Source of the DNA: a virus
IMG/VR virus record: IMGVR_UViG_3300003654_000069
Coordinates: 1 to 64,000 of that record
Length of the DNA stretch: 64,000 bases
Reading direction: 5' to 3' (one strand)
The notes below the pieces were generated by a model, which was not told the origin of the DNA, made no database searches, and saw only the letters and a list, made by a program, of their open reading frames with translations. Numbering within the stretch: position 1 is the first letter of the stretch; every line of letters starts with the position of its first letter. Position numbers and translations under genes: made by a program. Positions 975 through 19,200 of this stretch are shown here, piece after piece.

Positions 975-1018
975 GAAGGGCTATCTTGCAATCTGCAGGG
1001 TAGCCCTTCTTTTTTTTT
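975..1018 (+). terminator. rho-independent terminator at the convergence point of the plus- and minus-strand modules
   Basis: A perfect 9-bp stem, GAAGGGCTA (975-983) paired with TAGCCCTTC (1001-1009), is followed by a T9 run (1010-1018). It sits between the plus-strand stop (972) and the minus-strand stop (1017-1019). Confidence 0.8.
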
Positions 1019-4000
1019 ACTTCTTGCTACCTATCGCTTGAAAATTAACCAAATTCTTAGTAGCAAGATATGGAGACCAGAAGGTTCCCTTTATACCAAC
1101 TGTTTTTGCTGCATGGTTTATAAGCTTCCATGATTCTTCTTGCTGCCACTCATATGGACCAACATCTTTCTGGTAGTATGCCCGATCATCTCCTGTTCCC
1201 ATAAGATACACATCATTTGCCATCTGTACATAAAGATCTAATGTAGGACCAAATGCATAGGATTTCCAATTAAGCATGTTGTTATAATTATCAAGTCCAA
1301 GTCCAGGTATAGGTATCCATTGATCAGATTCAGCTCTTATTTGCATCATCAGATTAAGAGCACTGTTAGCCAACCAACCATCAAGTTTGAATGGTGCATC
1401 TGGATCCTCTACTACAAAAAGACCTGGCATATCACCTGATCTAGCTTTGATTTTTTCCCATTTGTCATCATCACCAGCATCCCAGTCAAAAAGAAACATA
1501 TAAAGCTGTGTTAAAACTATAAGCATTGCTATCTCAGCAACTGTTTTTATTACCCCTGCTTTTTCATTAGGAGTCATCATAGCAAGACTCTTACCTGCAG
1601 TCTTTACTGCTTTCATGAGTTGTTCTATGGTAACAATATACATTCCTTTATTAGCCTCACCTCTTCCAACATCGATCCTATCCCGAGGTGCCCATATTGG
1701 ACCTGAAAATGCCCATCTATTCATAAACATTGGGATAAAATATTTGTTCAAAAAGAAAGTAAGCCTTCCTAAAAGATGTCTTTCAGCCTCTGGTAGACTG
1801 AAGTTATCATATGCACCAGCCGTGCTACGTGCAACACTATGCATAAGTTCCCGCATGTTTTTAAAATCCTCCCCTTTATCCCATGAGGGATCAATTCCAT
1901 CCAATAATTTTAACTTTCCTTTACTATCCAATTCCCATGCTTGGAGATATGGTATATTTCTTATTTCATTACCTACCTTCTGTGGAACTAGTTGTCTATC
2001 CAGCATACCTGCACTCAGGGAAACTGTAGAATGGGATTCAGTCCACTTACGGAAACTGAAGAACCAACCAAAATCAAGTAACTTCTTGAGCCATGTACGA
2101 GACATTTCCTCTCCAAATACTCTTTCTGTTCTGCCTCTGAGCATATCAAAACGATGTATAAGTTGAACTCTTATACTCTGAGGTCCACCACGTTCCTGAA
2201 TAGATAAACTTAATTCAGTCATTGCCTGTGTAGCCCATACAGTCCCTGCACCATAATTTGTCATGCCAAGATACCTTCCACCAATTGCCTCGATAATATT
2301 CTGAAAAACTTGTGTAAAGGCATTCTTCAAAGCACTAATAATATCAAGAGCAAACATGGCAAAGGATGCTCTACCAAATAATGCATTTACAGTGGCATTC
2401 AATATTTTTGAGTCCTTCCCCCATCCGGCTAGGTTCTGTCCAAGGAAATGCTTTTCATAGAGTGACTCAATAGTTTTAGCTCTTATGTTCTTACTCTTTG
2501 GATCATCAACAAAAGTAACCTGTCCACGGTTATTAAGATTGTTCTTATCAATGCTATTTATCAGTTTTATTGCATTAGCGGGATCTTTTAATACAGTTCT
2601 CAGTGCCTGTGCTATAGGATTAATTTCTATAAGTTTCTTCTGTTTAGTTGCAGAATACATATATTTAGCAAGTGACATGGTAAGATCTACAGAAACCTGA
2701 TTAAATTCAAGTTCTCCTGCACCAGTAATTGGAATTTTGGAATTACCATCACTAAAAGACTCAGCTGTTACTAATTGTACAGCATCATCAAAATTGTAAT
2801 CACGGTCATAATCATCCTTTGCTGTCTGTATGAAATTTCCAACCCATCCATAGAAGGTATCAATAGGGCTACGAGCAGCATCTCCAAAACCTTTAGTCTG
2901 GACAACTTCAGCAAATACCATTGAATACCTGGGCTGATCTAGATATACCTTACCACGAACACCAATACCTTCCTGTGTTTTAAGTAAATATTTTGTAAAA
3001 ATTCCAAGAGCTTTAAATCTCGCCTTATCCATCTCTGATGTACTATTCTTCAGGGCATAGTACTTCTCATTGATATATGGACTGTTTGATGGAGCACCCT
3101 GTTCCAAGCTTAATGGTAACATTCTACCCTTGTTATCAATATGCTTTCCTACAATAAGGTTTACCTCCCCGGTTTTCGGATCATATCCATTCCGAAATTC
3201 TTTCTTTACATTAGATACACTATAACGGCTGTTGGGTACTCTGTCAATAACCTCAATTATATCTCCATTCTCATCAAGAATGTCAGTTTTGTCAAGATAA
3301 ATTGTACTATTAGGTTTCTTAACATTCCACACATAAAGTCTTTTGTATTCATTATCACTATACTCTGTAGTGTCTATCTGTATATGATTTGCCCGGAACC
3401 ATTCTCTCAGTGGAGCATTATTTGCTAATAGAGCACGACGGAGGTCACCATCAGATAAAATGTCTTCTGCATATTCATCAGTCATTTCAGTTGCCCCAGG
3501 TCCATATTTATTTATGAGTACCTGAGATTCTGTTTTTGTAAGCAAACCATTGAAGGTATTGATATAACTGTTGGTTGCATATGTTCCCCGAAGATTACGA
3601 AGTTCTCTAAAGGCATTATTAAGATCTGTCTTTTCTGTTGGAGAAAGACCTGCTGTAAGCTTTCCTTCAGGCTTTAAACTATCTGCCAGTTCTTCTAAAG
3701 CTCTTGCTCGTTGTATGTCAGCTGGTAATATCTCAGCACCAACAATATGTCCATTACCATCTCTGTGCATATTACCTATATGCAAAAGTTTCTCCCAGGC
3801 TTCTGTGGCCTCCTTGGCCTGTGGTTTATTTCTTAGGACAAGCTTTATTACATCAAGGTTTCTTTTAACTTCTGCAGCATAGGTGTCCTTTACTTTGATA
3901 ATAGTATTTCTATCAATCCAGCCTCTTCTTAGTAAATTAAACTTTTCAGAATCTCTTTCATATCCAACACCTTTATCAATAATAGCTTGTTCTACCTTCT

Positions 4001-7000
4001 TGAGATCTCCAAGGAATAGTTTTATATAAGGCTTTCTTTCATGATATCCACGACTGGCTTCTCGGAATTCTATAAGTCTCTTAGCAATAGATAAATCATA
4101 TATTCCATTAGCAGGATCATCAAACTTTGCCTTACCATCTCTATGTACTAAATAAAACAAACTATTATAATCTCTTTGGAGAGATCTGTTTATTGCATCA
4201 GATTCATCATCTCCGATTTGATCATTTGGTTTACGCTGGAATATCTGTATATTCTCAAGTGCTTTCTTTCTGGCATCAAAAGCAAGTCTTCCTATATGGT
4301 CATCAAAAAGAGTAAATTTTTCATAGAACTCAGGCACAAAATCTTGGTTCCAATAAAGACGTTCATGATCACGTATCTCTTGCTCCTTTAATCTAATCTT
4401 TTCATTGTTTGCATCGGTAAGTGGATTCCTATTCAACTCTGCAAGTTCATGAACTAGTTTAGGAAGTACTAATCTACGGTTTTTGGTTGGGTTTAAATAG
4501 GATTGAACATCTCTTTCTACCCATTCACCTTTATCATCAGTATATCCTATTTTGTCAGCAAATAATAACTGATTAGCTAAACCTTGTGTATTCATAGGAT
4601 TATATCCTAATTCTTTTAGAACATCCTGTATTTCATTTTTAAAATCTCCGAGAAGATCAAGAGCTTCGGTCTGAGCATCAGTCATGGCATCACTAAGAAA
4701 CTTGGCAAAGCCACCAATAACAAGATCACTATTCTGAAGAGGACCAAGAAGCCATTGTGCAGGAAGACTTGCATCTCCCAACTTGCCCTCTAGTATATCT
4801 TTTAGCTTTTTATCAGTAATTTGTGTCCTCTCATACTTCTTGGTTATCTCTGCAAGTGCTTCTTTGGATGCACCTTGTGTCGTAGCTTTTTTCATCGTAT
4901 CCTCATATACAATTTTCATACTAAGCTGGGTTACCTTAAGCTGCTTAAGGATAATTACATGCATTCCCGCCTTATATACTATACCAAGATTACTTTCAGC
5001 CTGTTTGAAAGTGCTAGCTATTCCACTAATAAGTTCATGTATTGGATTGGTAGTAGGAACATTATTATCATTAAGAATATTAATACTTCCCTCTATAAAT
5101 TGCTTCCAGTGTTGCACAACAGTATTATAATTAAATACTCTATAAAGATTATCAACAGCATTAAGATTATCCGTATTATCAGTAATTTGTTTAAGATGTT
5201 CATTCATTTTCTGGGCTACCAGATCAAGCCGGAGAAGACTATTAGTAAGAGCTCGGGTATGCCTCTTTGCATACTCAAGATCTACTTTAAGAGCATCTAG
5301 TTTTTTCTCCACATTTCCTTCAAAGAAACCAAGCTCCCTTTTCATTTGTGTAAGGTGACTTGGTGAATCTTGACTTATAAGAAGATCAATAACTTCTTTA
5401 TACTTTCCTCTATTTTCCTTTTGCTTCAATAAACCAACCATTGATAAAGCAGATGTATGGAAATCATTAGTAATTTGGACAATAACATTATTCTCAAGCT
5501 TTCTCAGGGCTTCTGTAAACTCCTCTTCTTTCCTTTGAAATTGTTCAACATCCGAATTTTTTATTCTGACTGTTGTCAGATTAAACTTTCCACCTGCCAT
5601 AAGCATCTCAGCCAGATCCTCAAGGGAACTGTTTACATCTAATTTCTCTACAGTAATCCTATTACCGAATATCTTTCTCAACTTCTGCTTGATGGCATAC
5701 ATAAGATTCTTAATGAACTTCATAAATGGTCCAGAATTATTGATATTATTCATTTTATTCTCAGCTGCAAGCTGAATGGACCATACAAGAGCTTCTTTCT
5801 TATATGCTGAAGTGCCTTCTTTCAGATTAGGGTACCGAGTCTCTAGAATCGTCTTGATCCGATTACTCTCATTAGATAGAAGAAACTGCGTATAGAGACT
5901 ATCAAACAGAGCTGGATCCCCCACTTCAATCGCATCAATAATAGGATGAGAGAATTCATGAAAGAGTGTTGCTGGTGATAAGAGGTCCCGTATGAAATAA
6001 GCAGTACCTCCCACATAGAATGCAGGTTCTCCTTTCCATGTTTTAGCATATGTGATAGCTTCATTTTTATCAATTATTTTATAAGGTTTACCTGTTTGGA
6101 ATGATAAGGCATCTGCCATTTTGATTAAAAATTCAAGTGCCATAGCCTGATCAGTAGATTTAAGATCCAGATTAGGTACACTTTCACCTCTATAGAATTT
6201 TGGAAAATTAGTGAAATATGGACTATAACTTTGGCTGAGTACATTAGCAACCGGTCCACCAGGAATCTTCCGGGATACATACCAGTTTCCCTTCTGTGAT
6301 TGTGTAAGAGTCCATGATTCAGGTACAACCATCTCTTTTATCTTGGCTGCAATTAGTTCCAGATCAATAGCATCAAGCTTATCGAAGATTACCCCATGCT
6401 CACTTACCTCATACATCTGATCCAGCCATTGTAGAAGCTGTCTCTGGTGAGAGGAAATGTCCATTGAATAAGATACAGCAGGATCTGAAGATGTTTTATC
6501 TCTACCCTTAATAATATCCGTTATTTTAGCTATTGTTTCTGGAGAGTTTAACAAAATAATTTGAGAAGGTTCAAATACTACTATTATATTACCCCATTCA
6601 TCTATTGGGGATTCTGAAAACTTTTTCAATTCTTCTGCAATAGTATCCTGTTTACTTAATCCTATATGAGAACCAAATATCGCATCCGAAATTTTATTTT
6701 CTCTTTTACCAATTTTAGTATTATAATAGGTTCCAAGTTCAGGATTACTAATATTCAAAATAGCAGGTGTATGAATACTTCCATATTCATCAGCACTAAA
6801 AGCTTCTCCTTCTTTTTTACGACTAAAAAATATACCATTTTCAATTTGAAATCCTCTATATAACCTTCTTTCAGATTCTTTTAATTTTCTAACAGAAGTA
6901 ATAAACTGTTCACTTCCATGCCATACTATATTCTTAACCTCACTGCCAGGTATTAACTGTTCAATAGCATATTGTATATCTTCATTACTAAATTTAGCAT

Positions 7001-7253
7001 AAGCTGGTTCTATTGATTTTAGATCATCTATATTTTTAGATTGTTCTGGAGTTATAGTAGTTTTGGTAATATCTGTTTCTGTGAGTTTTTTAGATAGGGA
7101 TTGCTGAAATACAGTAGCAACATCACTAGTACGAGTAGGTGTAGATACAATCTGTTCACCATTCTCATAGTAATTTTTATAGGCTTGGAATTCTCCTACT
7201 TCTGCTACCATGGTTTTCCAGGCAGGATCGGTTGTATTGGGGCATATACTCAT
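1017..7253 (-). CDS. giant (2078 aa) multidomain virion/ejection-type protein with an ART-like N-terminal region, an HExxH zincin motif and a C-terminal hydrophobic helix
   Basis: Uninterrupted 6.2-kb ORF. Its start overlaps the stop of the 4038-aa gene as ATGA (7250-7253). Domain motifs are listed as separate features. Confidence 0.9.
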   Translation of the reverse strand: MSICPNTTDPAWKTMVAEVGEFQAYKNYYENGEQIVSTPTRTSDVATVFQQSLSKKLTETDITKTTITPEQSKNIDDLKSIEPAYAKFSNEDIQYAIEQLIPGSEVKNIVWHGSEQFITSVRKLKESERRLYRGFQIENGIFFSRKKEGEAFSADEYGSIHTPAILNISNPELGTYYNTKIGKRENKISDAIFGSHIGLSKQDTIAEELKKFSESPIDEWGNIIVVFEPSQIILLNSPETIAKITDIIKGRDKTSSDPAVSYSMDISSHQRQLLQWLDQMYEVSEHGVIFDKLDAIDLELIAAKIKEMVVPESWTLTQSQKGNWYVSRKIPGGPVANVLSQSYSPYFTNFPKFYRGESVPNLDLKSTDQAMALEFLIKMADALSFQTGKPYKIIDKNEAITYAKTWKGEPAFYVGGTAYFIRDLLSPATLFHEFSHPIIDAIEVGDPALFDSLYTQFLLSNESNRIKTILETRYPNLKEGTSAYKKEALVWSIQLAAENKMNNINNSGPFMKFIKNLMYAIKQKLRKIFGNRITVEKLDVNSSLEDLAEMLMAGGKFNLTTVRIKNSDVEQFQRKEEEFTEALRKLENNVIVQITNDFHTSALSMVGLLKQKENRGKYKEVIDLLISQDSPSHLTQMKRELGFFEGNVEKKLDALKVDLEYAKRHTRALTNSLLRLDLVAQKMNEHLKQITDNTDNLNAVDNLYRVFNYNTVVQHWKQFIEGSINILNDNNVPTTNPIHELISGIASTFKQAESNLGIVYKAGMHVIILKQLKVTQLSMKIVYEDTMKKATTQGASKEALAEITKKYERTQITDKKLKDILEGKLGDASLPAQWLLGPLQNSDLVIGGFAKFLSDAMTDAQTEALDLLGDFKNEIQDVLKELGYNPMNTQGLANQLLFADKIGYTDDKGEWVERDVQSYLNPTKNRRLVLPKLVHELAELNRNPLTDANNEKIRLKEQEIRDHERLYWNQDFVPEFYEKFTLFDDHIGRLAFDARKKALENIQIFQRKPNDQIGDDESDAINRSLQRDYNSLFYLVHRDGKAKFDDPANGIYDLSIAKRLIEFREASRGYHERKPYIKLFLGDLKKVEQAIIDKGVGYERDSEKFNLLRRGWIDRNTIIKVKDTYAAEVKRNLDVIKLVLRNKPQAKEATEAWEKLLHIGNMHRDGNGHIVGAEILPADIQRARALEELADSLKPEGKLTAGLSPTEKTDLNNAFRELRNLRGTYATNSYINTFNGLLTKTESQVLINKYGPGATEMTDEYAEDILSDGDLRRALLANNAPLREWFRANHIQIDTTEYSDNEYKRLYVWNVKKPNSTIYLDKTDILDENGDIIEVIDRVPNSRYSVSNVKKEFRNGYDPKTGEVNLIVGKHIDNKGRMLPLSLEQGAPSNSPYINEKYYALKNSTSEMDKARFKALGIFTKYLLKTQEGIGVRGKVYLDQPRYSMVFAEVVQTKGFGDAARSPIDTFYGWVGNFIQTAKDDYDRDYNFDDAVQLVTAESFSDGNSKIPITGAGELEFNQVSVDLTMSLAKYMYSATKQKKLIEINPIAQALRTVLKDPANAIKLINSIDKNNLNNRGQVTFVDDPKSKNIRAKTIESLYEKHFLGQNLAGWGKDSKILNATVNALFGRASFAMFALDIISALKNAFTQVFQNIIEAIGGRYLGMTNYGAGTVWATQAMTELSLSIQERGGPQSIRVQLIHRFDMLRGRTERVFGEEMSRTWLKKLLDFGWFFSFRKWTESHSTVSLSAGMLDRQLVPQKVGNEIRNIPYLQAWELDSKGKLKLLDGIDPSWDKGEDFKNMRELMHSVARSTAGAYDNFSLPEAERHLLGRLTFFLNKYFIPMFMNRWAFSGPIWAPRDRIDVGRGEANKGMYIVTIEQLMKAVKTAGKSLAMMTPNEKAGVIKTVAEIAMLIVLTQLYMFLFDWDAGDDDKWEKIKARSGDMPGLFVVEDPDAPFKLDGWLANSALNLMMQIRAESDQWIPIPGLGLDNYNNMLNWKSYAFGPTLDLYVQMANDVYLMGTGDDRAYYQKDVGPYEWQQEESWKLINHAAKTVGIKGTFWSPYLATKNLVNFQAIGSKK
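1488..1553 (-). other. predicted transmembrane or membrane-inserting helix (residues 1901-1922 of the 2078-aa protein)
   Basis: A 22-residue hydrophobic run, VIKTVAEIAMLIVLTQLYMFLF, is followed by the acidic stretch DWDAGDDD. Confidence 0.45.
5946..5960 (-). other. HExxH zinc-metallopeptidase motif (HEFSH, residues 432-436 of the 2078-aa protein)
   Basis: The reverse complement of 5946-5960 is CAT GAA TTC TCT CAT. The context GGTAYFIRDLLSPATLFHEFSHPIIDAI parallels the HESWH module of the 4038-aa protein. Confidence 0.5.
6564..6932 (-). other. possible PARP/ART-like (H-[Y/F]-E type) ADP-ribosyltransferase module, residues ~108-230 of the 2078-aa protein
   Basis: The order IVWHGS ... NGIFFSRK ... 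IIVVFEPS matches the H-G-S, aromatic-F/Y-S/T and catalytic-E order of H-Y-E clade ARTs. Judged by eye only. Confidence 0.3.
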
Positions 7254-10200
7254 ATTGCGCAGGCTGCTCTTTTGATGTCTCTTACCATTTGATTGGTGAG
7301 AGGCATACTGGTTTGTAATATTCTTTCACCTTCAGTAGTACTAGTAAAGTTTTTATTTAAGTAGTTGAAATCTTTAAGTAATCTTGCCGACAAATGTGCA
7401 AAAATTCCTGGTGCAACAGCTCGTTTATCACTTAAATTATCACCAGTAATATCATCAGCACCAATAAGAGCTTGTCCCATTCCTCCTTCAGGGAATACAA
7501 TCCGCTTGGGATTAACAGGATCATTCTTCATTGCAAGAGCAGCATCCAGAACTGCATCTATTCTTTTGGCATGTGCTTCAAACTCCTTCTCAGTACCATC
7601 AGTAATCTGGGCAGTATTCTGATTTGTATAATAAGATACCCTTAATGGAATACCTATAGCATTAGTTTCACCACCTGGTCCTTTTGCTGTTTGCCATACA
7701 TGACCCGGAACACCGAAGAACTTAGTATTTACAGGTTTACCGGGAACAAGACCATCATACATAAAAATTGCATTAGGGTTCTCTATCATTATCTTCTCGG
7801 CCATCTTAACACTTTCAGATAACTTATCTGTAAATGAACTGGTATAAGTGAATACACCCGGAAAACTTTCTTTTATAAATCTTCCTTGTAAAGGTATAAG
7901 TTGAGAAGATTGTTGTGTAAAAGCTTTGATTATTACATTTTTAGTAAATTCAGCAATTCCTGGGTGACTAACTTCTCTATGTCCCGCTACATTAAGTGTT
8001 TTAATATTATTTTTTATAACAAATTCTAAAAGTTGTTCAGCAGCTTCATTAACATCTTTAGTAGTAATAACTAATACAGGACGATGTCCTTTATCACTAG
8101 ATTTCCCTGTACCATGTTGCCATTTACCTGTTTGAGCATATCCTATAGTTTTGCTTGTACCAACACTTGTTCCCCATAGAGTAGCTAATGTACCGTCTGA
8201 ATCATCTACATTTTTCATTGTTCTTTTTGGGTATGTTTTAGGATCTGATACTCCTTCAACAAGACCAAAAGACTCAAGCAAAGCTTTTTCATTCTTATCT
8301 CCACTAAGCCAATTAGGAGGGGCTGTACCACCTGTTTCAATACCTACAGCTTTAGCTCCTTCTAATCCACCTATATCTCCACCAGTTTGACCACCAGATA
8401 TAATTTTAGTGACAGCAAGTATAGTAGGTTCTACGGATGTTTGCCCCAAAGTAGCTCTATTGCTAGAGTTAATAGTATACTGTTTATACCTATCTCTATA
8501 TTGATAATTACTGGAACGGTTATTCCATGCAAACATTTCTGCAAAATTGTCTATGAAAGCAGTACCTCGTTTTCCAGAACTGATTTCATCAAGCATAGTA
8601 ATATATTTTGGCATTTCTGACTCCATAAACAAAACAGTAGTCTTCTCTGTAGGCATTATACGACCCATAGCAAACATGTTATCGGTAGCCATACCGGACT
8701 GAAGCATATTGAAGAATGGCATCTTCCGGAAGAATTCTGATATTCTCATGTTCTCCTTATCATCAGCTACTTTCATTACTCTAGGATCCATTAGATTAAG
8801 GAGACTTTCATGAAACATATTTCTCATATCAACTGTCATCCTTGGGTCATGTAAGCGAAGATTATCCATTCTTTCCAGTTGAGTTTCTCCTGGTTTAACT
8901 CCTATCTGATTGAATACAATCTGATCCAGAACAGGAAATCTGTCTGCCATATCTGTATCTCTATACTTATTCTTAAATTCTTGATACTGTTTAGCATAAC
9001 TACTGTCATTCTTAAAGACCTTCCATGTATTCCATATATTATCCAGAGCTTTATCTCGTAGAATTTCTTCATAGGAAAGTATACTTATTCTCTCATCAAA
9101 AGCAGCATGTGTTTCTCCCTCCTCTCTCTTTTGTATCTTTTCATTTCTCTCTAAATTACGTTTGAACTCATCAGTATCTTTTACATCTTTTATAGAAGTA
9201 AAGCTTCTCAGATGTTCTCTTTCTATTACGAAATGAGCATACTCATCCATTGACTCAAATACATTCTTATGAAGTGGTGCAAGACCAAGTTCTCTATATT
9301 CTGGCATAAGACCAAGACCTGGTTTTGTAATAAGATTATAGTCAGATTTGATTTTTTCTTTATCAATATACATGGTATCATTATGAACAAAGGCACCTAT
9401 CTTAAGATATCTGATTTGTGTAATAGAAGTTGTTGTATTGGTATTATACCCCTTGTACTCCTTAATATTATCTAAAGAAAATCCTCGAAGCATATCCTGA
9501 TAGATATATGATATGAAATCACTCTTCATAGTATCTATTGTCTCTTCCATATCACGATATGTTTTCTCAACAACTTCCTCAAATTTTTTATCTTCTATTT
9601 GTTTAAGTATATGGTTATTAAGTGCAGGATGATTTGAGAGTTCAAATAAAGGAGCAAGATGATGAGCGAGGAACTCAGAAATATCATAGCTACCCATTAC
9701 TGAGTCTTCCATGATATTAGTAACCATTTCTGGCCGCCATCTGCCATTCTGTTCTAGTTGTTTTGCTTTTATATGTCTGAACATAGCCATGAACATAGTA
9801 CCAGATTTTTTAGCATCAAATCTAGTAGCTAGTTTTATTTTAGTAAGACTACTACTTTGATCTTCTAGCTCAAAATAATGTAATAAGACATCAATATCAG
9901 TCTGTGATGGTTGTACAAGCTCTTCTCCTTCAACTCTTTGTCCAAATTTTTTACCCTTTTCCTTAAACACTTTAAGAGTATCGAGAAGTTCTCCTTCAGT
10001 AAATGGATTATCAGCTCTTCTGGTACGGAGATACATATATATCTCCTTCTTCATAAAGTGAATCTCTTTAGTATTTCTTATAATTTTCTGTCCGATAAGT
10101 TGTGTCTGAGCACCTTTACCTAATGCATCAAGTAAAGGTTGTGTATATCTAAGAGTCATTCCATATTTTGCATCAGATAACATAACATCCCTAGCATGGT

Positions 10201-13200
10201 TTCTAGCGTACTGTGGTTTTTCTGCAGCTTTGTTAAGGGGACCGCCAAACTGACTTTGGGCAAGTTGTTGTTCTCTTACATATGCTCTTACTAAAGGATT
10301 ATTAACAAGATAAACTGCCATCTCTTTTGTTACACCAGCTCTTCCTACCAAATAAGCAAATGTAGGAAGGACATCTAAAGAAATACCTAATCTAAATATC
10401 CACGGATCTTTTGCCACATCCACATAACCGGAAATAAGCTGGGCTTGGTATTCAGGCATTTTATATCCTTTTACATTTCTTAGTCCTGAGACAGATATTA
10501 CCTCATTACCATCATCATCTGTAACGGTATTACTATCCATATATATGGCCTGAATTCTTGCAAATTCTCTATTACCAGCCTTATCCATGAATGTATAACT
10601 CATAGGCTCACCATTATCCATAAACATTGGAGAGGTTGATGCATCTACTGCAGCAATCCCTAAACCTGCCATACCAGAACCAAATGCCTGATGCATATCT
10701 AGATTGAAGAGTTGTTCCATAACACGGGTATGACTGATTTTATCAGTCTTCTCACCATGTACATTCTCTCTAGCATCATATTCCTGAGTAAATTTCTCCA
10801 TTTCTTCTGTAAGCTTGTCATAATGGAATGTACCATTGGCACGAATAAGATCAGCAAAACCTGCAGGATCAAGAAGAATATTCTCCATAGCTAATAGTAA
10901 TTGATTCTCAGCAAATTTTGCCTCATACTCAAGAGCAAAATCTTCATAACTCTTCACTCCCTGTTCTTTTAATATATCTATTATCTCTTCTTCTGTATAA
11001 TTTCCATCATAAGCATCTGGAATTGTTGTTTCTATTAACTCATCCATTTCAGTATCTACTATCCTAATTATCTTACCATCTTCATCCTTAAGGAAATTTA
11101 CTTCAAGTGCTTTATCCCGGAGTCTTTCCCATATTTTTTTCACAGCAATAGGATCATATCCAGCTAGTCTGGGAACCCCATTAATTATGGTTATACTAGG
11201 CATAAGAGTTAATTCCTTATCACCATCAAAGTCAATACCTTTTTTAGCAAGCCATTCGGGAGGACCTATAATTATTGCTCCAGCAAGTTTTGGTAAAAAT
11301 TCATGAACTTGAACTATATCAAATGATGCTTTAGACTGACCTGGAATCCTGGGTGATATGAAACTAATCATTCTACGATTTTCATCATTAGCATACCAAC
11401 CTGGAGCTTGGATAATCTCATTGAGTCTTAATAAGGTTCTGGCAGGTTGACCATCTGGATGCACTAATTTAAGCAGCTTCTGGAAGTCTCCTTGAAGTGC
11501 AATCTTGACTCTCACAGACTGAATCTTTGAGGTATCTGGTTTCTTTACCCAGAAACCTACATTCTTATGTTCTTTTCTCTCAAAACCCTGTTCTTCCAGA
11601 AATTCAGCTATTATACCTTCTCCTGAGACATTATGTGGACTAATAGCATTAGTCTTATTGTCAGCAATGAAAGTCCGTACACCCTGGTATATGGCCTTCT
11701 TAATATGCTTTTTAATAAGTTCTACATCTTTTTCCTGATTTTTTCTTCCTCTTCCTGGAACAGAAATCATTACCTTATCAAACATGTCGTATTTATCTGC
11801 ATTAACAGCATTATCCCCACGAGCCTTTCTAAACTCATCTGCATACTTGATAGTAGAGCTTGAAGGATCATGAGAAACTGCTATAATCTTATCAGCAAAA
11901 TCAGCTTTTACCTGGTCTTTAGGAAACTTGGCACCAATAATTACAGGAGTAACCTGTCTTTCTATTGTTTTAGGATCAATTTCTCGTTCTATATGATAGC
12001 TTGCTAAACCATTACTACCATACCTCATAAGATCTGTAAAGCTTGGCTTCTTAAGTTTGATCTCTCTAACAGCATCTGAACTTTCCATACCAGCCCCAGA
12101 TACAATATTTAAAGGTTCTCCCTTTACTTTCTGTTTAATAAGTCTTCTCTCAACCATTCCTACAATCAGTCTTTCAATATCTGCGGCTGCAGGTGAAAGG
12201 GAAAGATCATGTTGAAGCTTATTCAAAATACCATTAAATTCTACAAAATCTACTTCATGTTCACCAAACTCTCCTCTTTCCAGTTCAGATTTAGCTAATG
12301 CTATAAGCTTCTCTAGATTAACCTTAGCTCCATCGCTGGTACCACTTAAATCTATATTGAGTTGCTTCTTACGAATCTCAGTCAGGTACTTTGCTGCCTT
12401 ACCAAAATCACTATGCTTTATATAGGCAGCGGAAAGCTTTCTTCTAGCTTTATCTGTAGCTTCTTTATCAATTTTACCATCTTTACCTATTACTTCAGTC
12501 TTCTTCCAGGCCTTCCTTTTTTCATCTGTGGTAACATTAGGCTTAAAATCTACAGGAACTCCATCGGACATAAGACCGGTAGTGATAAGTCTTCTCAACT
12601 GGGTAGAAAAACTAACCTTTCGCTTATACTTATCAGGAATAGATACCTGATCCTTGAGATATTCTATATAAACAGGATTCGGAGTAAATTGATAATCATC
12701 GGATGCAAAAGCAGCTATTCTATCTTCTTGATTACTATAGAACAAATCTAGTTCACCATTTTTTCCAATAGATGTAAGCTTCGACCCAGATTGAAATAAT
12801 GCATAATCGATACCTTGGGAAACCATCTTATTATGAAATATTTCCAAATTACCTGTTACAACTCCAGGAATAAGAGGTAAAAGCATCATTTTATGGAATG
12901 ACTGAAGGGGGATTCCTAGTGCTGTTGCAAGAGGACCGAACTCCTGAAGTTTCATTGTAGGAAAGAAATGTTCAGCAGCTTCAGCACTGATTTTCTCACC
13001 TTTGATAACTTTCCAATACATAGTTTCCATTTCATCAGTCCATTCATCAGAACCCATAAGCTTCTTAAGAATTCGATATGTATCAAAAGTTATCCATCCC
13101 TGTCCATCTCCTTCTTTAATACCCAGATAGTTCTTCATCTCAGCTGCAAGTATCTCATCAATTGCTTTCTTGGATAATTTTGCATCTTCCATAGTTTTTA

Positions 13201-16200
13201 CAGAATCTGCATACATTACTCTGGTATATTCTGCAAAATAAATACTATTTAATACAGAATCTTGTAGAACGGCTGACTGTACTATACCAGTCCATCTGAT
13301 ATGTATTGGCTTAAACATTCCTTCAGGGAACCACTTACTATCCATGTAAGGTCTTAATCTATTTTCCTCACCATCCATGCTGTTAATAAATGCTCGGGAA
13401 GCAGCATCATTAAGGAAACCTTTTCCTGTTGCAGGTCCTCCTGTAATACGTTTAATTGCACTTTCAGCTGATTTATACTGGGCAAGATCTCCATAAAAGA
13501 TAGTAAATGTCTCATAATTATGGATCCACATATTAGTAAGATATGCCTCAAATAAAGCTTTCTTATACTGAGGATTTGTGAAATCACCGGATATATGATG
13601 ACCCTGTCTGGCACCTGCACCAACTGATCTTAGAAGCTCTTGCATATTCTCAAGATGGGCACTATTATCAAACCCAAGTTCATTGAATGTTTCAGTAAAT
13701 TGTTTAACTCGATTATCAAAATACTTATCTAGATCTTTTATTATCTTATCCAGAAGATCCTGATTTTCTTTCTGGAGTTGTCCAAAAAGAGGATTATCAT
13801 GGTCATAGTCAGTCATTTTCATAAGCTCATCTTTCGTACTTGGAGAAAGAACATCATGAAAAAACGTGAACTTTTGTCCAGCTATGTAATAAGGAATAAG
13901 TTTACCATTTTTATCTGTAGCTTCTGTTAATGCATCACGTTCCTCTGATCCTACAGGAAGAGCTTTCAAATAATTAATCCTGGCTAGCTCATTGCTTATT
14001 TTGGAAAGAAAGATAATATTTCTTTCTTCTCTACCAGTATCAATAAGGAATTTAACAGGATCTATATAATATTTTCCAGTATGTTTTGTATTAGGTGATA
14101 TACCATTGGCCTTTGTGATCTTAGATACTCCAGACATATATGAAGTAGTTCTGTCAGAAGTTCGGGGTCCTTCAGCCCAACCTCGCTGAAAAAATGTAAT
14201 AAGATCTCCCAAAAACTTAGTAGCCTTATCAGTATCTGCTAAAGCAGATCCAGAAAGATGTATTATATCATTAAAAGTAGTAGCTACACCTGATAGATTT
14301 CCCCATATAAGTTCAACAACTGCAGTACTCTTATCTTTTTCATTAACTTTTCTCCTTTTTTCTGTTATAGGATCAAAAAGCGAGGCCATAATTATACTAT
14401 CTCTGATTAAAGGATTTCTATCTTTTTTGAGATATGACATGAAAGGAAATCTGAAAAAGAGATCATCCTCTGACTCTGAATTATTAATAGCATTGACTTG
14501 TCGTGTATTAGTAGAATGAAGAGCAAACTCATATTGAGTCTTGTTTTCTGCGGTACTGACCATAAAACCAGCAGCAGTATTATGTTGAGCTTCAAGTTCA
14601 GCTAATTTTGTAAAACGACCCTCCCATCCTGTTTTATCTCTAAGTATCTTTTCTCCTGGTATTATTTTTCCTTCAGGTGATATTTTAGGTAGATCTGTGA
14701 TATTATCTCTTTCTTGATACAATTGATTCAAAAAATCTGCTCTTAGGATAGGTTCCTTTTGGTGTATTAATATATTTAACCATCTATAAATGTGAAATAT
14801 CTGATATTTGTTATCACTATCTTTCATTATTTCAGTTTCCACTTCCAACTGTTCAGATAAGTCAATCCCAATAACTCTTAAAAATTCAGGAGATCTTAAT
14901 CTATCCAGTGTATCAACAGTACTATCTTTATCTTTAGGAGCTGCAAATTCCTTTACAACTTCTGCAATATCAAGATATACTATTCCATTAATATCTTTCT
15001 TCATGAACTTATTTCTTCCTAGTACAGGAAAGTCAGTTTGCCATTGACTCTTCATTCTTCTATGACCACCTGAAGTTTTTCCAAATGCAAAATCAAATAT
15101 ATCTACTCCTTTTGTATTTATCTCCTTATTTATAGTAAGTTGATGAAGATAGGTTCTGATCTTATCGAGGGATGCCTGAAAATCCATCCATATAACATTA
15201 ACTATTTTTTTATCACTCTTTCGATCACCAAGTCTTTCTAAGAGTTGTTTATATATATGAGCATCTGGATAATTTGGGTTGTCTCTTCTAACTACCATTC
15301 TATTATATAAAAGCTCTCTATCATTCCCACCAACCAAGTACTTAACAACTCTATTCCATACAAGCATTGGCTCCTCATAATTGAGAAAACCAAATCTGTC
15401 ATAAGCATCAGCCTGATTCTTAGACTTAAAAATGGTTTTCATGAGTACAGCTATCTCAGGAGTAGCAAAGAAGTCCAATGGAATAGTATTACCCTTTCTG
15501 TTAGGATCACTTCTTTCTTTTGCGACAGATGCACTAGTATCAAAATCATCATCTATACCTTCTAATTTCGCTTTATCCTTGGCAGTAAGAAACCGAGTAT
15601 GGTCTCTATGATAAGCAACAATCCCTTTCTTTTTATCTTTCTTAGTAGGATAAAAATTATTTTCAATATAACCCAGAAGATACATATTACGACTTTCACC
15701 AACATTAACTAGTTCTTTAGAAGGAGCTTGTTTGGCAGCTTCCTGCTGTGACATTATAAGCCGGGCAGTATCAATAGTTCTTTCAAGAGGTGAAGCAATA
15801 ATCTCAGGAATTTCTATATCCTTGAATAACTGTCCAATTTCTACAGCTTGCTTAGTACCCTTATCTGTAAGTTGTCCACCAGGAGTACCAAAAGTTTTAG
15901 TTACATTATCTATGGTTTCTCCATGTCTTACAATATGAATAGGACCATTCTTACCCTGAATAATAAAATGTGCTCCTGGTTTGAATGTACCAGCCTGTTT
16001 TACATATGCATTTCTCTGAAGTTGTGTGAATTCAGAAGGGTTCCCCTCTTTATTCCATAGACTAATTAATCCAAATGTTGAACCATGAGTAACAACTACA
16101 GTATGAGCCTTACCATTAGCTACTATATCAGATATAGCAGGAACAATTCTATTGAATGCATGATTGAAAGATTCACCATCAGAGATAATAGGCTTATCAG

Positions 16201-19200
16201 GCTTATTCATTATATTGTCAGCAATAGTCATATTTTTAGCTCTATCTTCTGGTCTTCCTACTTCAGACCCATAATCAAAACCTCTAAAACTATTAACAAG
16301 TTTAAGCTTAGACTTAACACCAGTTCTCATTGTTCTAATTTCATCAAGTACAAGGGTATATATAATTTTTTGGGAAGAAGGTTCTTTCATTAAATGATGC
16401 TCACTTATAAAATGACCTTGTCTTTTTTCCAATACTATGGCTATTTTGGTAATAATTTTATCAAGAAGACCACTTATAGCCTTAGATTCAGTATAATCAA
16501 GATTAACTGCTTCCATCGGATTGCCAGCAGCATCAGTATCAAGACCTTGAATACCTTTACGGAGAATATTGAAGTTCCGGTTACTTATATCAAAGGTAAA
16601 GTCTGAAAGATCACCTATTCTCATCTTTTCGAAAAGCTGATGGATATGTACATTATCAAGAGGACTTGCTATAACATCTTTCATACTAGTACCACCAAAA
16701 AGAGACTTGAGTATATCCCATAACCTTTTAAATATTGATTTTCTGGCTGGTCCTGAAGGGATTTTTTTACCACCAGATAACATATACTTACGGAAATCCT
16801 CTGCAAGCCACTCTTCTAATTGTTCTTCACTGGCTTTATTAAAGGCTACTGTTACACCCTTATAATCAGTAAAACTACCCTGTAATGAACCAGCCTCTTT
16901 ATAAAGTCTTTTCTTTTGTTCTTTAGTCAGGAAAAGCTGAGTGAATCCGTGCCATGACTCATGGTAAAGATCTGAGAAATCTGATCCTTTGAAAAGAACA
17001 ATACCATCAGCAGTCCATTGAGCAACTCCTGAACTGTTAACAATAGTAAACATAACTTCAAAAGGAATAAACTTTGACATAGGATGGTTTGAATACCATT
17101 TCTTGGCATCTTCTATCTGAGCTTTAGTAGCAACTAAGTTAAATGTCTTCTGAAACTTATTCTTATTCCACTTAACTTTGAATATCTCTTCAAGCTTTCT
17201 AAGTGCTGGATCTGTTAAAGGAGCTAGACTGACTGTCTTCTCTTGGGTAGGTACGGTTATATCTATATTAGGAATAGTACCCTTAGCTGCACCTAATGAT
17301 GGGGCACCAAGCATAAAATCGAGAGAGGGGTTTATAGGAGCAATCCCTCTCACACCACCATCGTCATAAGACACAGCATTAGAAAGTGTTTTTGTTGCAA
17401 TCCAATTGACATATGGTATTGCAGGTACTTTTTTAATAGATATTTTGCCATTTTTATCAGTTTCCAGACTAAACTCCTCAATCATTTTTTGGTCACTAAT
17501 AACATTATAAGTCTGGAAATTAGCCCATTTAAGAACAAGTTTTCCATTTGGGTCTTTTACCTCTACAAGCATAAAATCCTTCCCCTGATTTCTTGTTTTA
17601 GCTGCTAGTCTAGGATCACTAATTTTATCAAATAGTCTATTACCAGTTTTTAGATAAATTGCATAGGGAGTATCCTTTCCATCTTTAGTCGTCATTTCTC
17701 TACTAATAGGAACAGCATCTTTACTTATAAATGGATGACTTAGATATTTTATAATTAATTTTTTTGCTTCTTCTTTCTTAACAGCAAGCTCTTCTGGAGC
17801 AATACCGGCAGACTTATAGATATCATGACCCATGTATCTGACAGTAATATTCTTAGTATCATCTGCAAATAATTGCAATCTATCACTACTAAGTAAAAGC
17901 ATTGGTCGAAGAAGTGCTAATTTGGCATGAACAGACATGGGCTCCTTTCCTTTATCATAAATATCATCTACTATAAGACTTGCCCAACTCTCTATGTCTT
18001 CCTGAGTAATATACTTTCTAGTAAGAGGAATTTCTTCATGTACACCAGGAAGAGTTAAATTAATATTCTTTACTTCCTTTAGACCTGGAACAGGTTGAAT
18101 ATCAAAACCTTTAGATAAAGTAACTTTACTAAGATCTTCAAATTCATTTTTCGGAGTCTTGGTAATAATTCCTTGCGAACCTCCTGTTATATGGCCTATT
18201 ATCTTATTACCCTTAAGAGCACCATTATCAGTAGATAGTACATGTTTAGTAACCTGATCACGCTCCTCAGCTTGATCATTAGTAAACTTGGTTGCTTCTT
18301 CTAAGGTAATTTTTGTATATGGTTTTTTTAATGATTTTTTTACAGTTTCATTAGGATTTTCTATACCTGATTTTTCATAGTTAATACTTCCATTTTCATT
18401 TCTATGTACTCCTTTTACAGGAGAATAAAATATTCTACCATTATTTTCATCAGTAAGTTCACGTTTAACATTAAAGTATAATATTACACCATTTTCATCA
18501 GTAGCTACCATAACTACCTTTGTCTTCCAATTTGCCAAGGCAGCAGCATTATCTGTGGCATTACCATTCTCTAAAAATGCTTTATCTTGAGAACTATATT
18601 GCCCTGGAGGAATATTAGTAGCAGCCATTGCTGTATAATACAATCCTGTAGTTCCACCACCAGGTCTGATAAATTTTATATTACGACTATCATTATTATA
18701 TCTTGGATTATCTCTCAGATCATCCAAGATACTTCTCATAAATTTCATGTAGAATCCCATTTCCAGATCAGGAATATTTCTCATTATCTCAGCCCGCTGA
18801 ATACCTCTTGCTTGTTCTAAACTTTTATTATCTTCATCCCTGATTTTAGGAAGAGTTCTATGCTTAGCTTCCTGACCAGTAGTGTGGTTAAGACTTTTAA
18901 GAAGAACAGTACTTTTAATAGGCTTCTTAAATTTTCCTTTCTCTTCAGCCATTCTCTTCTGCTGTCTATCCTGTGCCTGATAAGAAAGTTCTTTACTTAT
19001 CTGCTCGGTTGTTTGAGTAGGTGTACCTTTTTCTAGATAAGTAAGAACATTAGCAATTCCTTTCTCAAGCTCTTTCCCAAACTCTCTTATATGCTTTCCG
19101 AGGGCATTCAGATCAAGACCATTATTTGCTAGATATTCTGCAAGGACTTCATTTGCTTCAGTAGACACAACAAGATTAATTGCCTTAGGAACAACTTGTA

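What the first reader, a model, noticed from the sequence alone, without database searches (positions are those of the whole stretch)
7922..8419. cpYpsA-type SLOG domain at the C-terminal end of the polymerase fusion
The blocks SGGQTGGD, GG-x-x-P, Y-x-x-RT-x-x-NV-x-DSDGTL and NVAG-x-RE are the hallmark blocks of the circularly permuted YpsA family within the SLOG superfamily. SLOG domains are thought to bind or process nucleotide-derived ligands such as NAD, ADP-ribose and cytokinin-type nucleotides. They recur in conflict systems. A virion-delivered copy could sequester or cleave nucleotide second messengers or NAD-derived signals made by host defences. It might instead modify the phage's own nucleotides. 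A second, more divergent SLOG-like domain sits in the neighbouring 2534-aa protein (nt 20585-21018). Two copies suggest the activity matters to the phage.
Basis: partly seen in the sequence, partly recalled or inferred. Interest (0 to 1): 0.7.

Follow-up and report, generated by a model that had tools for sequence, protein, structure and literature searches.

The report
SLOG module inside crAss-like virion polymerase
A giant 4038-residue protein of a crAss-like phage, which contains the phage's injected RNA polymerase, carries an intact inserted cpYpsA/SLOG nucleotide-binding domain; the same movable module recurs in many giant phage proteins, and its likely job (acting on NAD/ADP-ribose-type molecules at the start of infection) has never been tested.

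Summary
Window 7922-8419 (minus strand) encodes residues 3650-3815 of a 4038-aa ORF. It matches Pfam PF12694 (cpYpsA) at 86 bits against a cutoff of 26. The predicted fold (pLDDT 95) matches only PDB 3IMK. All 13 invariant family residues are kept.

The domain is not at the protein's end. It is a clean insertion between the conserved body of a crAss-type virion RNA polymerase protein and a conserved C-terminal DUF7831-type domain. About 36 collinear giant homologues lack it.

In IMG/VR, 26 of 81 related viral loci embed this module in reading frames over 1000 aa. The position varies, and it often sits with RNAP, DUF7831 or NADAR-like domains. The closest standalone homologues lie next to NADAR genes.

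The best reading is a mobile, probably ejected, nucleotide-binding or nucleotide-processing module aimed at NAD/ADP-ribose derivatives. That function was predicted in 2022 and is still untested.

The "second SLOG" is a real domain of a family with no Pfam model. Its link to SLOG is only weakly supported. The window's copy has lost five residues that are invariant in the family, so "two copies" is not evidence that the activity matters.

Verdict: a new architectural variant of known kinds, of moderate interest.

The parts
7916..8419 (-). cpYpsA (circularly permuted YpsA, SLOG) domain, aa ~3650-3817 of the 4038-aa protein; the Pfam envelope is aa 3655-3813
   Evidence: PF12694 at 86 bits, cutoff 26.2. 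3IMK by sequence, 1e-10, and by fold, E=1.7e-11. Model pLDDT 94.7. 43 of 46 conserved positions and all 13 invariant positions are kept.
7271..7888 (-). C-terminal DUF7831-type domain (aa ~3827-4032) that follows the cpYpsA domain; it is the ancestral C-terminus of this giant-protein family
   Evidence: 79 homologues were found, 36 of them giants over 3000 aa that carry it at their extreme C-terminus. 15 of 20 family members hit PF25176 DUF7831, best E=2.5e-7. The window's own copy gives no direct Pfam hit. A custom HMM matches it at 5e-49.
7250..19366 (-). 4038-aa giant protein: a crAss-type virion RNA polymerase fusion and the host of the cpYpsA insertion
   Evidence: ORF. It is collinear at 28-37% identity with giants of 3200-3600 aa, apart from three insertions at aa ~1000-1240, ~2460-2610 and ~3640-3850.
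11219..11233 (-). DFDGD catalytic-type motif of the two-barrel RNAP (aa 2712-2716)
   Evidence: Aligned to DFDID of the IAS virus RNAP gp056, E=4e-6. The surrounding 500 aa hit phi14:2 gp66 at 2e-9.
15722..16201 (-). Histidine-phosphatase (His_Phos_1) insertion, aa ~1056-1215; a second lineage-specific accessory module of the same protein
   Evidence: PF00300 at 75 bits, cutoff 21.7. PDB PhoE/CobC hits at 8e-6. Absent from the collinear giants.
20446..21018 (-). The 'second SLOG-like' domain (D2) in the 2534-aa neighbour (aa ~1985-2175): a degenerate member of a family with no Pfam model, consensus HSGGAxGSD...RNWxQV...GGTG...FAGIGTR
   Evidence: No Pfam hit. 190 family members, none with a Pfam domain. 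Model pLDDT 91 with no significant PDB fold hit. hhalign to cpYpsA gives E=8.8e-4 and 0.022, z about 2.9 against shuffles. Five invariant residues are lost.
6558..6929 (-). Possible ART-PolyVal (ADP-ribosyltransferase) region at the N-terminus of the downstream 2078-aa protein; context only
   Evidence: PF18760, E=4e-4, 21.6 bits, below the cutoff of 31.2.

Best explanation
What it is (shown). An intact cpYpsA-family SLOG domain has been inserted as a self-contained module into the giant virion RNA polymerase protein of a crAss-like phage. It sits between the conserved polymerase body and the conserved C-terminal DUF7831-type domain.

How it most likely works (inferred). The giant protein is packaged in the virion and ejected with the DNA, as shown for its homologue phi14:2 gp66. 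The SLOG module would therefore be in the cell from the first seconds of infection. There it would use its conserved Gly-rich loop (SGGQTGxD) and its R/N/D/E pocket to bind an adenine/ribose-containing NAD-derived molecule. It would probably hydrolyse a ribosyl linkage in that molecule. Candidates are ADP-ribose derivatives: cADPR-type immune signals, toxic ADPr metabolites, or ADP-ribose attached to nucleic acid.

This would blunt NAD/ADPr-based host defence while the tethered polymerase starts early transcription. The module probably works together with the adjacent DUF7831 domain. In related phages the partner is NADAR. This is the logic of a 'polyvalent' injected effector protein.
For: Identity.
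- PF12694 at 86 bits, with full-length coverage of the profile.
- The fold equals 3IMK.
- All 13 invariant and 43 of 46 conserved positions are retained, so the ligand site is under selection.

Insertion and mobility.
- 36 collinear giant homologues carry the C-terminal domain but lack cpYpsA.
- In P0126 only 20 aa separate the two flanking blocks, against 207 aa in the window's protein.
- The module alone, at 42-60% identity, occurs in otherwise unrelated giant ORFs at varying positions.
- 26 of 81 IMG/VR loci have it inside frames over 1000 aa; 46 are standalone.

Link to the virion RNAP.
- cpYpsA and RNAP regions share one ORF in L019, L024, L064 and L097, in both orders.
- IAS virus encodes an 837-aa cpYpsA protein directly upstream of its RNAP genes.
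- The window is a crAss-like structural/cargo block. gp66-type proteins are virion-packaged (bioRxiv 10.1101/2020.03.07.982082).

NAD/ADPr context.
- The closest standalone homologues (63-65% identity) have a NADAR gene 0.8-1.5 kb downstream. One also has a RyR-domain gene nearby.
- RyR-domain phage proteins cleave cADPR signals (PMC13232231).
- NADAR-like domains lie directly upstream of cpYpsA in giants L024, L093 and L081 (L024 against YbiA, E=0.026).
- DUF7831 co-occurs with cpYpsA in L022, L068, L095, L020 and L081, and weakly in IAS gp055.
- The published prediction for viral YpsA-like SLOGs is the same (PMC9503650).
Against: - No cpYpsA-family member has a demonstrated ligand or reaction. 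3IMK is a structural-genomics entry named only by analogy.
- No NADAR, Macro or DUF4326 domain was found in this 64-kb window.
- PADLOC and NCBIfam give nothing.
- Packaging and ejection of this particular protein, and whether the module is released by proteolysis, are inferred only.
- Other fusion partners (SF1 helicase, AlkB-like, PHP, His-phosphatase) fit a nucleic-acid-directed or regulatory role equally well.
- The NADAR-like calls in giant ORFs rest on a small custom HMM (E=7.7e-6 to 6e-4).
- Nothing shows that the host encodes a NAD-based defence system.
Confidence: 0.45

Rival explanations
1. Sensor or regulator. The SLOG domain does no catalysis. It binds a nucleotide ligand such as NAD+, ADPR or a host signal, and allosterically switches the activity of the giant protein it sits in (RNAP, helicase and so on).
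For: SLOG domains such as that of ThsA are ligand sensors. Iyer et al. propose exactly this for SLOG fusions to helicase, HNH and HTH domains (PMC9503650). cpYpsA is fused to RNAP regions in at least five giants and to an SF1 helicase in L019.
Against: The same module is standalone in 46 of 81 loci, and it sits in giants that share nothing else. Position and order relative to the RNAP vary, which is hard to reconcile with a specific allosteric interface. It pairs with the enzyme-like NADAR and DUF7831 domains.
Confidence: 0.2
2. Nucleic-acid-directed repair. Together with NADAR, DUF7831 or phosphatase partners, the module removes ADP-ribose or a related base adduct from the injected DNA or from nascent RNA (for example DarT-type ADP-ribosylation or NAD caps). 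This would keep the template or transcripts usable for the tethered polymerase.
For: The module is physically tethered to the RNAP. Its partners act on nucleic acids or phosphoesters: AlkB-like 2OG oxygenase in L095, PHP in L063, the SF1 helicase in L019, His_Phos in this protein and a weak SNase hit in L022. NADAR enzymes are known to reverse guanine ADP-ribosylation (my own knowledge: Schuller et al. 2023, not checked here). DprA, a SLOG member, binds ssDNA (PMC7824862).
Against: No DNA- or RNA-binding feature has been shown for cpYpsA. Standalone homologues sit in early-gene regions typical of small-molecule counter-defence genes, next to a RyR-domain gene.
Confidence: 0.15
3. Nucleotide-pool enzyme. 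The domain would be a LOG-like phosphoribohydrolase or nucleotide hydrolase. It would remodel host (d)NMP pools or release free bases for the phage's benefit, unrelated to immunity.
For: The best-characterised SLOG enzymes (LOG) cleave the N-glycosidic bond of AMP derivatives (PMC9503650). A histidine phosphatase module sits in the same protein.
Against: cpYpsA belongs to the YpsA-like clade, not the LOG clade, and no LOG profile hit was found. One stoichiometric injected copy per virion is a poor way to remodel bulk pools. The NADAR association points to ADPr chemistry.
Confidence: 0.08
4. Passenger or structural filler. The domain would be a recently captured module with no function in this protein.
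For: It is absent from about 36 collinear homologues. Giant cargo proteins tolerate insertions: three are present in this one protein.
Against: All invariant residues are retained, in contrast with the visibly degenerate D2 domain next door. Insertions recur independently across many giants. Similar RNAP-then-cpYpsA arrangements appear in L024 and L019 at 56-60% identity.
Confidence: 0.07

Closest known systems
Pfam PF12694 cpYpsA (formerly 'MoCo_carrier'); structural representative PDB 3IMK from Syntrophus aciditrophicus
   Same: Full-length profile match at 86 bits. All family motifs are present. The predicted fold superposes with TM 0.76/0.85 and rmsd 2.2 Å.
   Different: 3IMK and most family members are standalone proteins of about 150 aa. 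Here the domain is embedded at aa 3650-3817 of a 4038-aa phage protein. It also carries an extra loop of about 17 aa (QTGKWQHGTGKSSDKGH), shared with phage relatives such as L017. The function of the family is unknown.
IAS virus (Crassvirales, NC_049978) gp055 'molybdenum carrier', 837 aa, directly upstream of RNAP genes gp056-058
   Same: It has a cpYpsA domain 36% identical to this one (E=7e-20), in the same RNAP/cargo gene block of a crAss-like phage. A weak DUF7831 signal is present in the same protein.
   Different: It is a separate gene upstream of the RNAP rather than an insertion near the C-terminus of the RNAP protein. The domain order is DUF7831 then cpYpsA, not the reverse.
Viral YpsA-like SLOG domains predicted to process or sense ADPr derivatives (Iyer, Burroughs, Anantharaman & Aravind 2022, PMC9503650)
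   Same: Same clade. Same association with NADAR, and the same predicted early deployment against NAD/ADPr-based immunity.
   Different: That survey describes viral SLOGs as 'typically standalone' and lists sporadic fusions to HTH, HNH, exonuclease, SF1 helicase and guanylate kinase. Embedding in virion RNAP or giant cargo proteins, and the pairing with DUF7831, are not mentioned.
Polyvalent virion proteins (Iyer et al. 2017, PMC5512222), including N4-like vRNAPs fused to ART, MPTase or lysozyme domains
   Same: A giant multi-domain protein in the virion module that combines a vRNAP with accessory enzyme-like modules. It is predicted to be injected and to act early.
   Different: That paper does not mention SLOG, YpsA or His-phosphatase modules (0 occurrences). 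The polymerase here is the crAss two-barrel type, not the N4 T7-like type.
ThsA SLOG domain of type I Thoeris (3'cADPR sensor) and LOG phosphoribohydrolases
   Same: Same superfamily, going by the Pfam and literature classification. A nucleotide-binding Rossmannoid fold with a Gly-rich loop after strand 1.
   Different: No detectable sequence or Foldseek match here. The cpYpsA topology is circularly permuted. Those are host-side sensors or metabolic enzymes, not phage-delivered modules.

Membership tests
cpYpsA (PF12694) | Profile match above Pfam's gathering score over most of the model | tested here: met
   86.2 bits against 26.2, profile positions 1-141 of 145; 77.2 bits on the whole protein.
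cpYpsA (PF12694) | Signature motifs: SGGQTGxD loop, GG-x-x-P, Y-x-x-RT-x-x-NV-x-DSDGT, NVAG-x-RE | tested here: met
   All are present. All 13 invariant columns and 43 of 46 columns that are at least 85% conserved among 61 homologues are retained. The only changes are A19G, T44S and G47K.
cpYpsA (PF12694) | Fold equal to the solved family representative (3IMK) | tested here: met
   Model pLDDT 94.7. Foldseek E=1.7e-11, TM 0.76/0.85, and it is the only significant PDB hit.
SLOG superfamily (Rossmannoid, circularly permuted relative to YpsA) | Demonstrable structural relation to non-permuted SLOG members (YpsA 2NX2, LOG, DprA, ThsA) | tested here: inconclusive
   Foldseek depends on sequence order and returned no SLOG structure other than 3IMK. 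The alternating beta-alpha secondary structure is consistent with the fold. The superfamily assignment rests on the Pfam name and on Burroughs et al. 2015, which could not be read here.
SLOG superfamily | Binds or processes a nucleotide-derived ligand | not testable with these tools
   No ligand is known for any cpYpsA member; biochemistry is needed.
crAss-like virion RNA polymerase (phi14:2 gp66 type) | DFDxD-type catalytic motif within a region homologous to gp66 or crAssphage RNAP | tested here: met
   DFDGD at aa 2712-2716. tblastn of aa 2601-3100 hits phi14:2 gp66 at 2e-9 (80% coverage) and crAssphage RNAP at 7e-9. IAS gp056, E=4e-6.
crAss-like virion RNA polymerase (phi14:2 gp66 type) | Packaged in the virion and delivered to the host | not testable with these tools
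   Inferred from homology, and from the gene's place downstream of the muzzle and ring genes. The property is shown for gp66 in bioRxiv 10.1101/2020.03.07.982082.
Polyvalent proteins (Iyer et al. 2017) | Several unrelated effector or enzyme domains in one giant polypeptide encoded in the virion module | tested here: met
   RNAP, His_Phos_1, cpYpsA and a DUF7831-type domain, plus an HESWH motif, lie in one 4038-aa ORF. Three of the segments are lineage-specific insertions.
DUF7831 (PF25176), for the C-terminal tail | Profile match above the gathering score | tested here: inconclusive
   The window's own tail gives no Pfam hit. 15 of 20 homologues do, best E=2.5e-7. Relatives in L022, L068 and L095 score 100-140 bits. 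Membership is therefore by transitive homology.
SLOG/cpYpsA-like, for the second domain (D2) in the 2534-aa protein | Significant profile or fold match to any SLOG family | tested here: not met
   Window copy: no Pfam, NCBIfam or PADLOC hit. Model pLDDT 91, best PDB Foldseek E=0.48. At family level there are only weak signals. Sub-threshold hits to LDcluster4, DprA, cpYpsA, Nuc_deoxyrib_tr and YAcAr range from 0.005 to 0.04. hhalign gives 8.8e-4 and 0.022, with score 21.7 against a shuffle maximum of 18.7. The cpYpsA model hits a fragment of an uncharacterised cr130_1 protein at E=0.023.
D2 family (no Pfam model; consensus HSGGAxGSD / RNWxQV / GGTG / FAGIGTR) | Retention of the family's invariant polar residues | tested here: not met
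   D27A, R90K, Q94H, T131A and R181E are each 100% conserved in 63 relatives. In total 20 of 51 conserved positions are changed.

The most novel reading that the evidence does not exclude
The cpYpsA module, alone or with its DUF7831 or NADAR partners, would be a virion-injected enzyme that destroys NAD-derived immune signals or ADP-ribose adducts at the moment of DNA entry. Candidate signals are the cADPR isomers, His-ADPR and ADPr-1''P. This would be the first activity assigned to the whole cpYpsA family. It would also be a SLOG-based class of signal-degrading anti-defence enzyme, distinct from the RyR-domain RyDEP glycosidases. It would make the giant RNAP/cargo proteins of Crassvirales carriers of pre-made counter-defence.
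Probability: 0.25. Interest if true: 0.8.

Novelty: new variant of a known kind. Interest (0 to 1): 0.5.

Why it matters
Crassvirales include the most abundant phages of the human gut, and the roles of their giant virion RNAP and cargo proteins are largely unknown.

This work shows that an intact SLOG module is repeatedly shuffled into these proteins, together with DUF7831 and NADAR-like domains. That gives a concrete, testable idea: crAss-like phages may inject ready-made enzymes that handle NAD/ADP-ribose-derived molecules along with their polymerase.

It also gives three uncharacterised families an experimental handle and a shared context. These are cpYpsA, DUF7831 and the 'D2' family that has no Pfam model.

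The domain itself is an ordinary member of a known Pfam family, and its proposed function was already predicted in 2022. What is new is the architecture and how often it recurs, not the kind of domain.

Tried and rejected
- Near-identical DNA search in phage GenBank: no match, so the phage itself is not a deposited genome.
- phmmer of the whole 4038-aa protein against PDB did not find the gp66 structure. RNAP homology had to be shown by tblastn and BLASTP.
- PHROGs, NCBIfam and PADLOC gave nothing for the cpYpsA domain, D2, insertion 2 or the tail.
- A single-sequence search for D2 homologues found nothing. Homologues were recovered only by tblastn against phages followed by a profile search.
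- Test that D2 is a second SLOG: Foldseek of a confident model gave no significant hit, and hhalign is marginal. I do not file it as SLOG.
- Test that the tail is Macro, NADAR or DUF4326: rejected. It is DUF7831-type, and a profile search of PDB gave nothing meaningful.
- NADAR HMM hits after three iterations were inflated because the hits had been added to the model. I recomputed the E-values from the round in which each hit was first detected. I dropped the late-round L016 hit in cr130_1.
- Burroughs et al. 2015, which defines cpYpsA, could not be retrieved.
- No paper in the library mentions PF12694, DUF7831 or SLOG in crAss-like phages.
- Insertion 2 (aa 2455-2615) has no homologue in phages or PDB.
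Full report
**1. Observation**

The three large ORFs at the left of the window all lie on the minus strand:
- 1017..7253, 2078 aa
- 7250..19366, 4038 aa
- 19366..26970, 2534 aa

SGGQTGGD is at aa 3657-3664, GGTAPP at aa 3679-3684, YPKRTMKNVDDSDGTL at aa 3712-3727 and NVAGHRE at aa 3792-3798. Coordinates 7922-8419 correspond to aa 3650-3815.

Four lines of evidence identify the domain:
- The segment matches Pfam PF12694 (cpYpsA) with E=2.4e-24 and 86.2 bits. The gathering score is 26.2, and profile positions 1-141 of 145 are covered.
- The only solved relative by sequence is 3IMK, 'putative molybdenum carrier protein' (E=1e-10).
- An AlphaFold2 model built on 62 homologues is confident (pLDDT 94.7, pTM 0.90).
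- Foldseek finds 3IMK as the only significant PDB match (E=1.7e-11, TM 0.76/0.85).

Against 61 homologues, the window's copy keeps all 13 invariant columns and 43 of 46 columns that are at least 85% conserved.

**2. What surrounds it**

The window is a crAss-like phage. Pfam finds the crassvirus muzzle protein (42044..47158) and tail ring proteins 1 and 2 (47162..48765). PHROGs finds portal, major head and tail-fibre proteins further right.

It has DFDGD at aa 2712-2716. Residues 2601-3100 hit Cellulophaga phage phi14:2 gp66 'catalytic RNA polymerase subunit' (2e-9, 80% coverage) and crAssphage RNAP (7e-9). The same motif region aligns with the IAS virus RNAP. Proteins of this type are virion-packaged (bioRxiv 10.1101/2020.03.07.982082). 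For this particular protein, packaging is an inference.

**3. The domain is an insertion, and it is not the C-terminus**

A further 223 aa follow the domain. An exhaustive HMMER search with this tail found 79 relatives. Of these, 36 are giants over 3000 aa that carry the tail at their extreme C-terminus.

An HMM of cpYpsA finds no such domain in any of those 79 proteins. BLASTP shows the giants are collinear with the window's protein from end to end at 28-37% identity, apart from three segments present only here:
- aa ~1000-1240, a histidine-phosphatase module (PF00300, 75 bits)
- aa ~2460-2610, with no recognisable relatives
- aa ~3640-3850, the cpYpsA module

In P0126, for example, only 20 residues separate the two flanking blocks, against 207 here.

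The tail itself belongs to DUF7831. Fifteen of 20 tail homologues hit PF25176, although the window's own copy does not reach Pfam significance.

**4. The module is mobile and recurrent**

The closest relatives (63-65% identity) are standalone proteins of 168-176 aa on phage-like contigs of 80-126 kb.

Scanning IMG/VR gave 242 viral contigs with a relative. I examined 81 loci, the 80 best plus L018. In 26 of them the domain lies in a stop-to-stop frame over 1000 aa (up to more than 6800 aa). It can be near the N-terminus, in the middle or at the C-terminus. In 46 loci it is standalone, at 260 aa or less.

Giants such as L017 (4212 aa, 54% identity in the module) and L018 share nothing with the window's protein except the module.

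Several giants also contain crAss-type RNAP regions in the same ORF. In L024 and L019 the RNAP comes before cpYpsA; in L064 and L097 it comes after.

In the cultured-lineage reference IAS virus (Crassvirales), an 837-aa 'molybdenum carrier' protein with the same domain lies directly upstream of the RNAP genes. The match is 36% identical with E=7e-20.

So cpYpsA is a recurrent accessory of the crassvirus RNAP/cargo block. It has been captured many times.

**5. Partner domains**

DUF7831:
- L022 has cpYpsA followed immediately by DUF7831 (E=5e-41).
- L068 has DUF7831 at 2.6e-33, and L095 has it at 1.4e-28.
- L020 and L081 match my tail HMM.
- IAS gp055 has a weak, partial match (7e-4).

NADAR:
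- The standalone closest homologues have a Pfam-annotated NADAR gene 0.8-1.5 kb downstream. One contig also carries a RyR-domain gene about 4 kb away.
- Two more contigs have NADAR within 10 kb.
- NADAR-like domains lie directly upstream of cpYpsA inside giants L024, L093 and L081. Their first-detection E-values are 7.7e-6, 3.3e-4 and 6.1e-4 with a four-sequence HMM.
- The L024 segment also matches YbiA (2B3W) weakly, at E=0.026. Pairwise BLASTP shows only the NADAR signature motif, for L024 and L093.

Other partners are an SF1 helicase (L019), an AlkB-like oxygenase (L095), a PHP phosphoesterase (L063) and the His-phosphatase in this protein.

No NADAR or Macro domain was found in the window itself.

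**6. Mechanism**

Shown: family membership, an intact pocket, the insertion, its mobility, and its association with the vRNAP, DUF7831 and NADAR.

Inferred: the giant protein is ejected with the DNA, so the module is present from the start of infection. There it would bind, and probably cleave a ribosyl linkage in, an NAD/ADP-ribose-derived molecule to blunt host defence.

This matches the prediction of Iyer et al. 2022 that viral YpsA-like SLOGs degrade or sense cADPR-type signals and cooperate with Macro and NADAR domains (PMC9503650). It also fits the 'polyvalent protein' logic of injected multi-effector proteins (PMC5512222). That paper does not list SLOG domains, and the 2022 survey calls viral SLOGs 'typically standalone'.

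A 2026 preprint shows that phage RyR-domain proteins are the first known enzymes to cleave 2'/3'cADPR (PMC13232231). A SLOG-based activity therefore remains an open, testable possibility.

The rival readings cannot be excluded. They are a ligand sensor regulating the host protein, repair of ADP-ribosylated nucleic acid or NAD caps, nucleotide-pool metabolism, and an inert passenger. No cpYpsA protein has ever been characterised.

**7. The 'second SLOG'**

It spans about aa 1985-2175 (nt ~20446-21018).

It has no Pfam hit, and a single-sequence search found no homologues. tblastn against phages did find relatives:
- megaphage genomes
- N4-like virion RNAPs (Klebsiella phage Pylas and Alteromonas phage PT15-A5)
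- giant proteins of crAss-like phages cr113_1, cr109_1 and cr130_1, annotated 'DprA-like'

A profile search recovered 190 relatives, mostly standalone proteins of 180-210 aa, none with a Pfam domain. The family consensus is HSGGAxGSD...LLxRNWxQVKxSD...GGTGYAVQMA...KPVYVFDQ...FAGIGTRxI.

Its relation to cpYpsA is suggestive but not established:
- Sub-threshold Pfam hits in two homologues to five families, four SLOG and one deoxyribosyltransferase.
- hhalign E=8.8e-4 and 0.022. The alignment is collinear through all four motifs. Its score of 21.7 compares with a maximum of 18.7 in 30 column shuffles.
- Nine of ten secondary-structure elements are in the same order.
- The cpYpsA model hits a fragment of an uncharacterised cr130_1 protein at E=0.023.
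- Against this, the confident D2 model (pLDDT 91) has no significant PDB match.

More importantly, the window's copy has changed 20 of 51 conserved positions. Five of them are invariant in all 63 relatives: D27A, R90K, Q94H, T131A and R181E. It is most likely an inactive remnant, so it does not support the argument that the activity matters.

**8. Verdict**

The finding is real and correctly named at family level. It is a new architectural variant that combines two known kinds, viral YpsA-like SLOG domains and polyvalent injected proteins. The combination is recurrent in Crassvirales-like phages and was not described in the literature I could search. The biochemical function is unproven.

Interest is moderate at 0.5. 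It would be high if the module proves to be an injected enzyme acting on immune signals.

Noticed in passing
window 15722-16201 (-), aa ~1056-1215 of the 4038-aa protein: The histidine-phosphatase (His_Phos_1) module is inserted only in this lineage. Its halves appear in swapped order. The C-terminal half (GESF...VVVTHG) aligns to PhoE 1EBB residues 111-154 and comes before the N-terminal half (IVRHGET...), which aligns to residues 4-67. This suggests a circularly permuted phosphatase. The second stretch is not significant on its own.
   Followed up: partly
window ~11537-11989 (-), aa ~2460-2610: This is the third lineage-specific insertion in the RNAP protein, about 150 aa just upstream of the DFDGD region. 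It has no hit in Pfam, NCBIfam, PADLOC, PDB sequences or phage genomes.
   Followed up: partly
window 6558-6929 (-), aa 109-232 of the 2078-aa protein: A sub-threshold match to ART-PolyVal, the ADP-ribosyltransferase of polyvalent proteins (E=4e-4, 21.6 bits, cutoff 31.2). If real, an NAD-consuming ART would be encoded next to the SLOG-bearing protein.
   Followed up: no
window 16949-16963 (-), aa 802-806: An HESWH (HExxH-type) motif lies in the most conserved block shared with the giant homologues (aa 733-975, 45-49% identity). It may be a zinc-peptidase-like domain that could process the giant protein.
   Followed up: no
L010 (Klebsiella phage Pylas vRNAP, locus ~7900-8366); L015 (Alteromonas phage PT15-A5 RNAP); L009 and L016 (crAss-like cr113_1 and cr130_1): The 'D2' family (190 members, no Pfam model, mostly standalone proteins of about 200 aa) is also embedded in N4-like virion RNA polymerases and in crAss-like giant proteins annotated 'DprA-like'. 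Two unrelated kinds of virion RNAP have thus acquired the same accessory domain.
   Followed up: partly
L022 6965-19075; L068 872-13705; L095 4383-17297; L063 9989-11797; L019 2-12793: Other giant phage ORFs combine cpYpsA with DUF7831 (100-140 bits), an AlkB-like 2OG-Fe(II) oxygenase, a PHP phosphoesterase or an SF1 helicase. DUF7831 with cpYpsA is a recurring pair of uncharacterised domains.
   Followed up: partly
L024 ~9329-9781; L093 ~9548-9985; L081 (aa 1219-1339 of its 2372-aa ORF): NADAR-like domains (LSNF... and SVE-YQ motifs) lie directly upstream of cpYpsA inside giant ORFs. Detection is by a small custom HMM (E=7.7e-6 to 6e-4). L024 also matches YbiA weakly.
   Followed up: partly
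L003 5261-5971 (-) and 11330-11869 (+): The contig carrying the closest standalone cpYpsA homologue also encodes a RyR-domain protein and a NADAR protein within a few kb. RyR-domain phage proteins were recently shown to cleave cADPR immune signals. This region looks like a counter-defence cluster.
   Followed up: no
L009 and L016 (crAss-like cr113_1 and cr130_1): In-frame stop codons appear inside the annotated giant ORFs when they are translated with table 11. This is consistent with the stop-codon recoding known in some crAss-like phages. The window's own giant ORFs have none.
   Followed up: no
window 7250-7253, 19366, 26970: Consecutive giant genes overlap by 1-4 nt (stop/start overlaps). 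This suggests translational coupling along the RNAP/cargo gene block.
   Followed up: no
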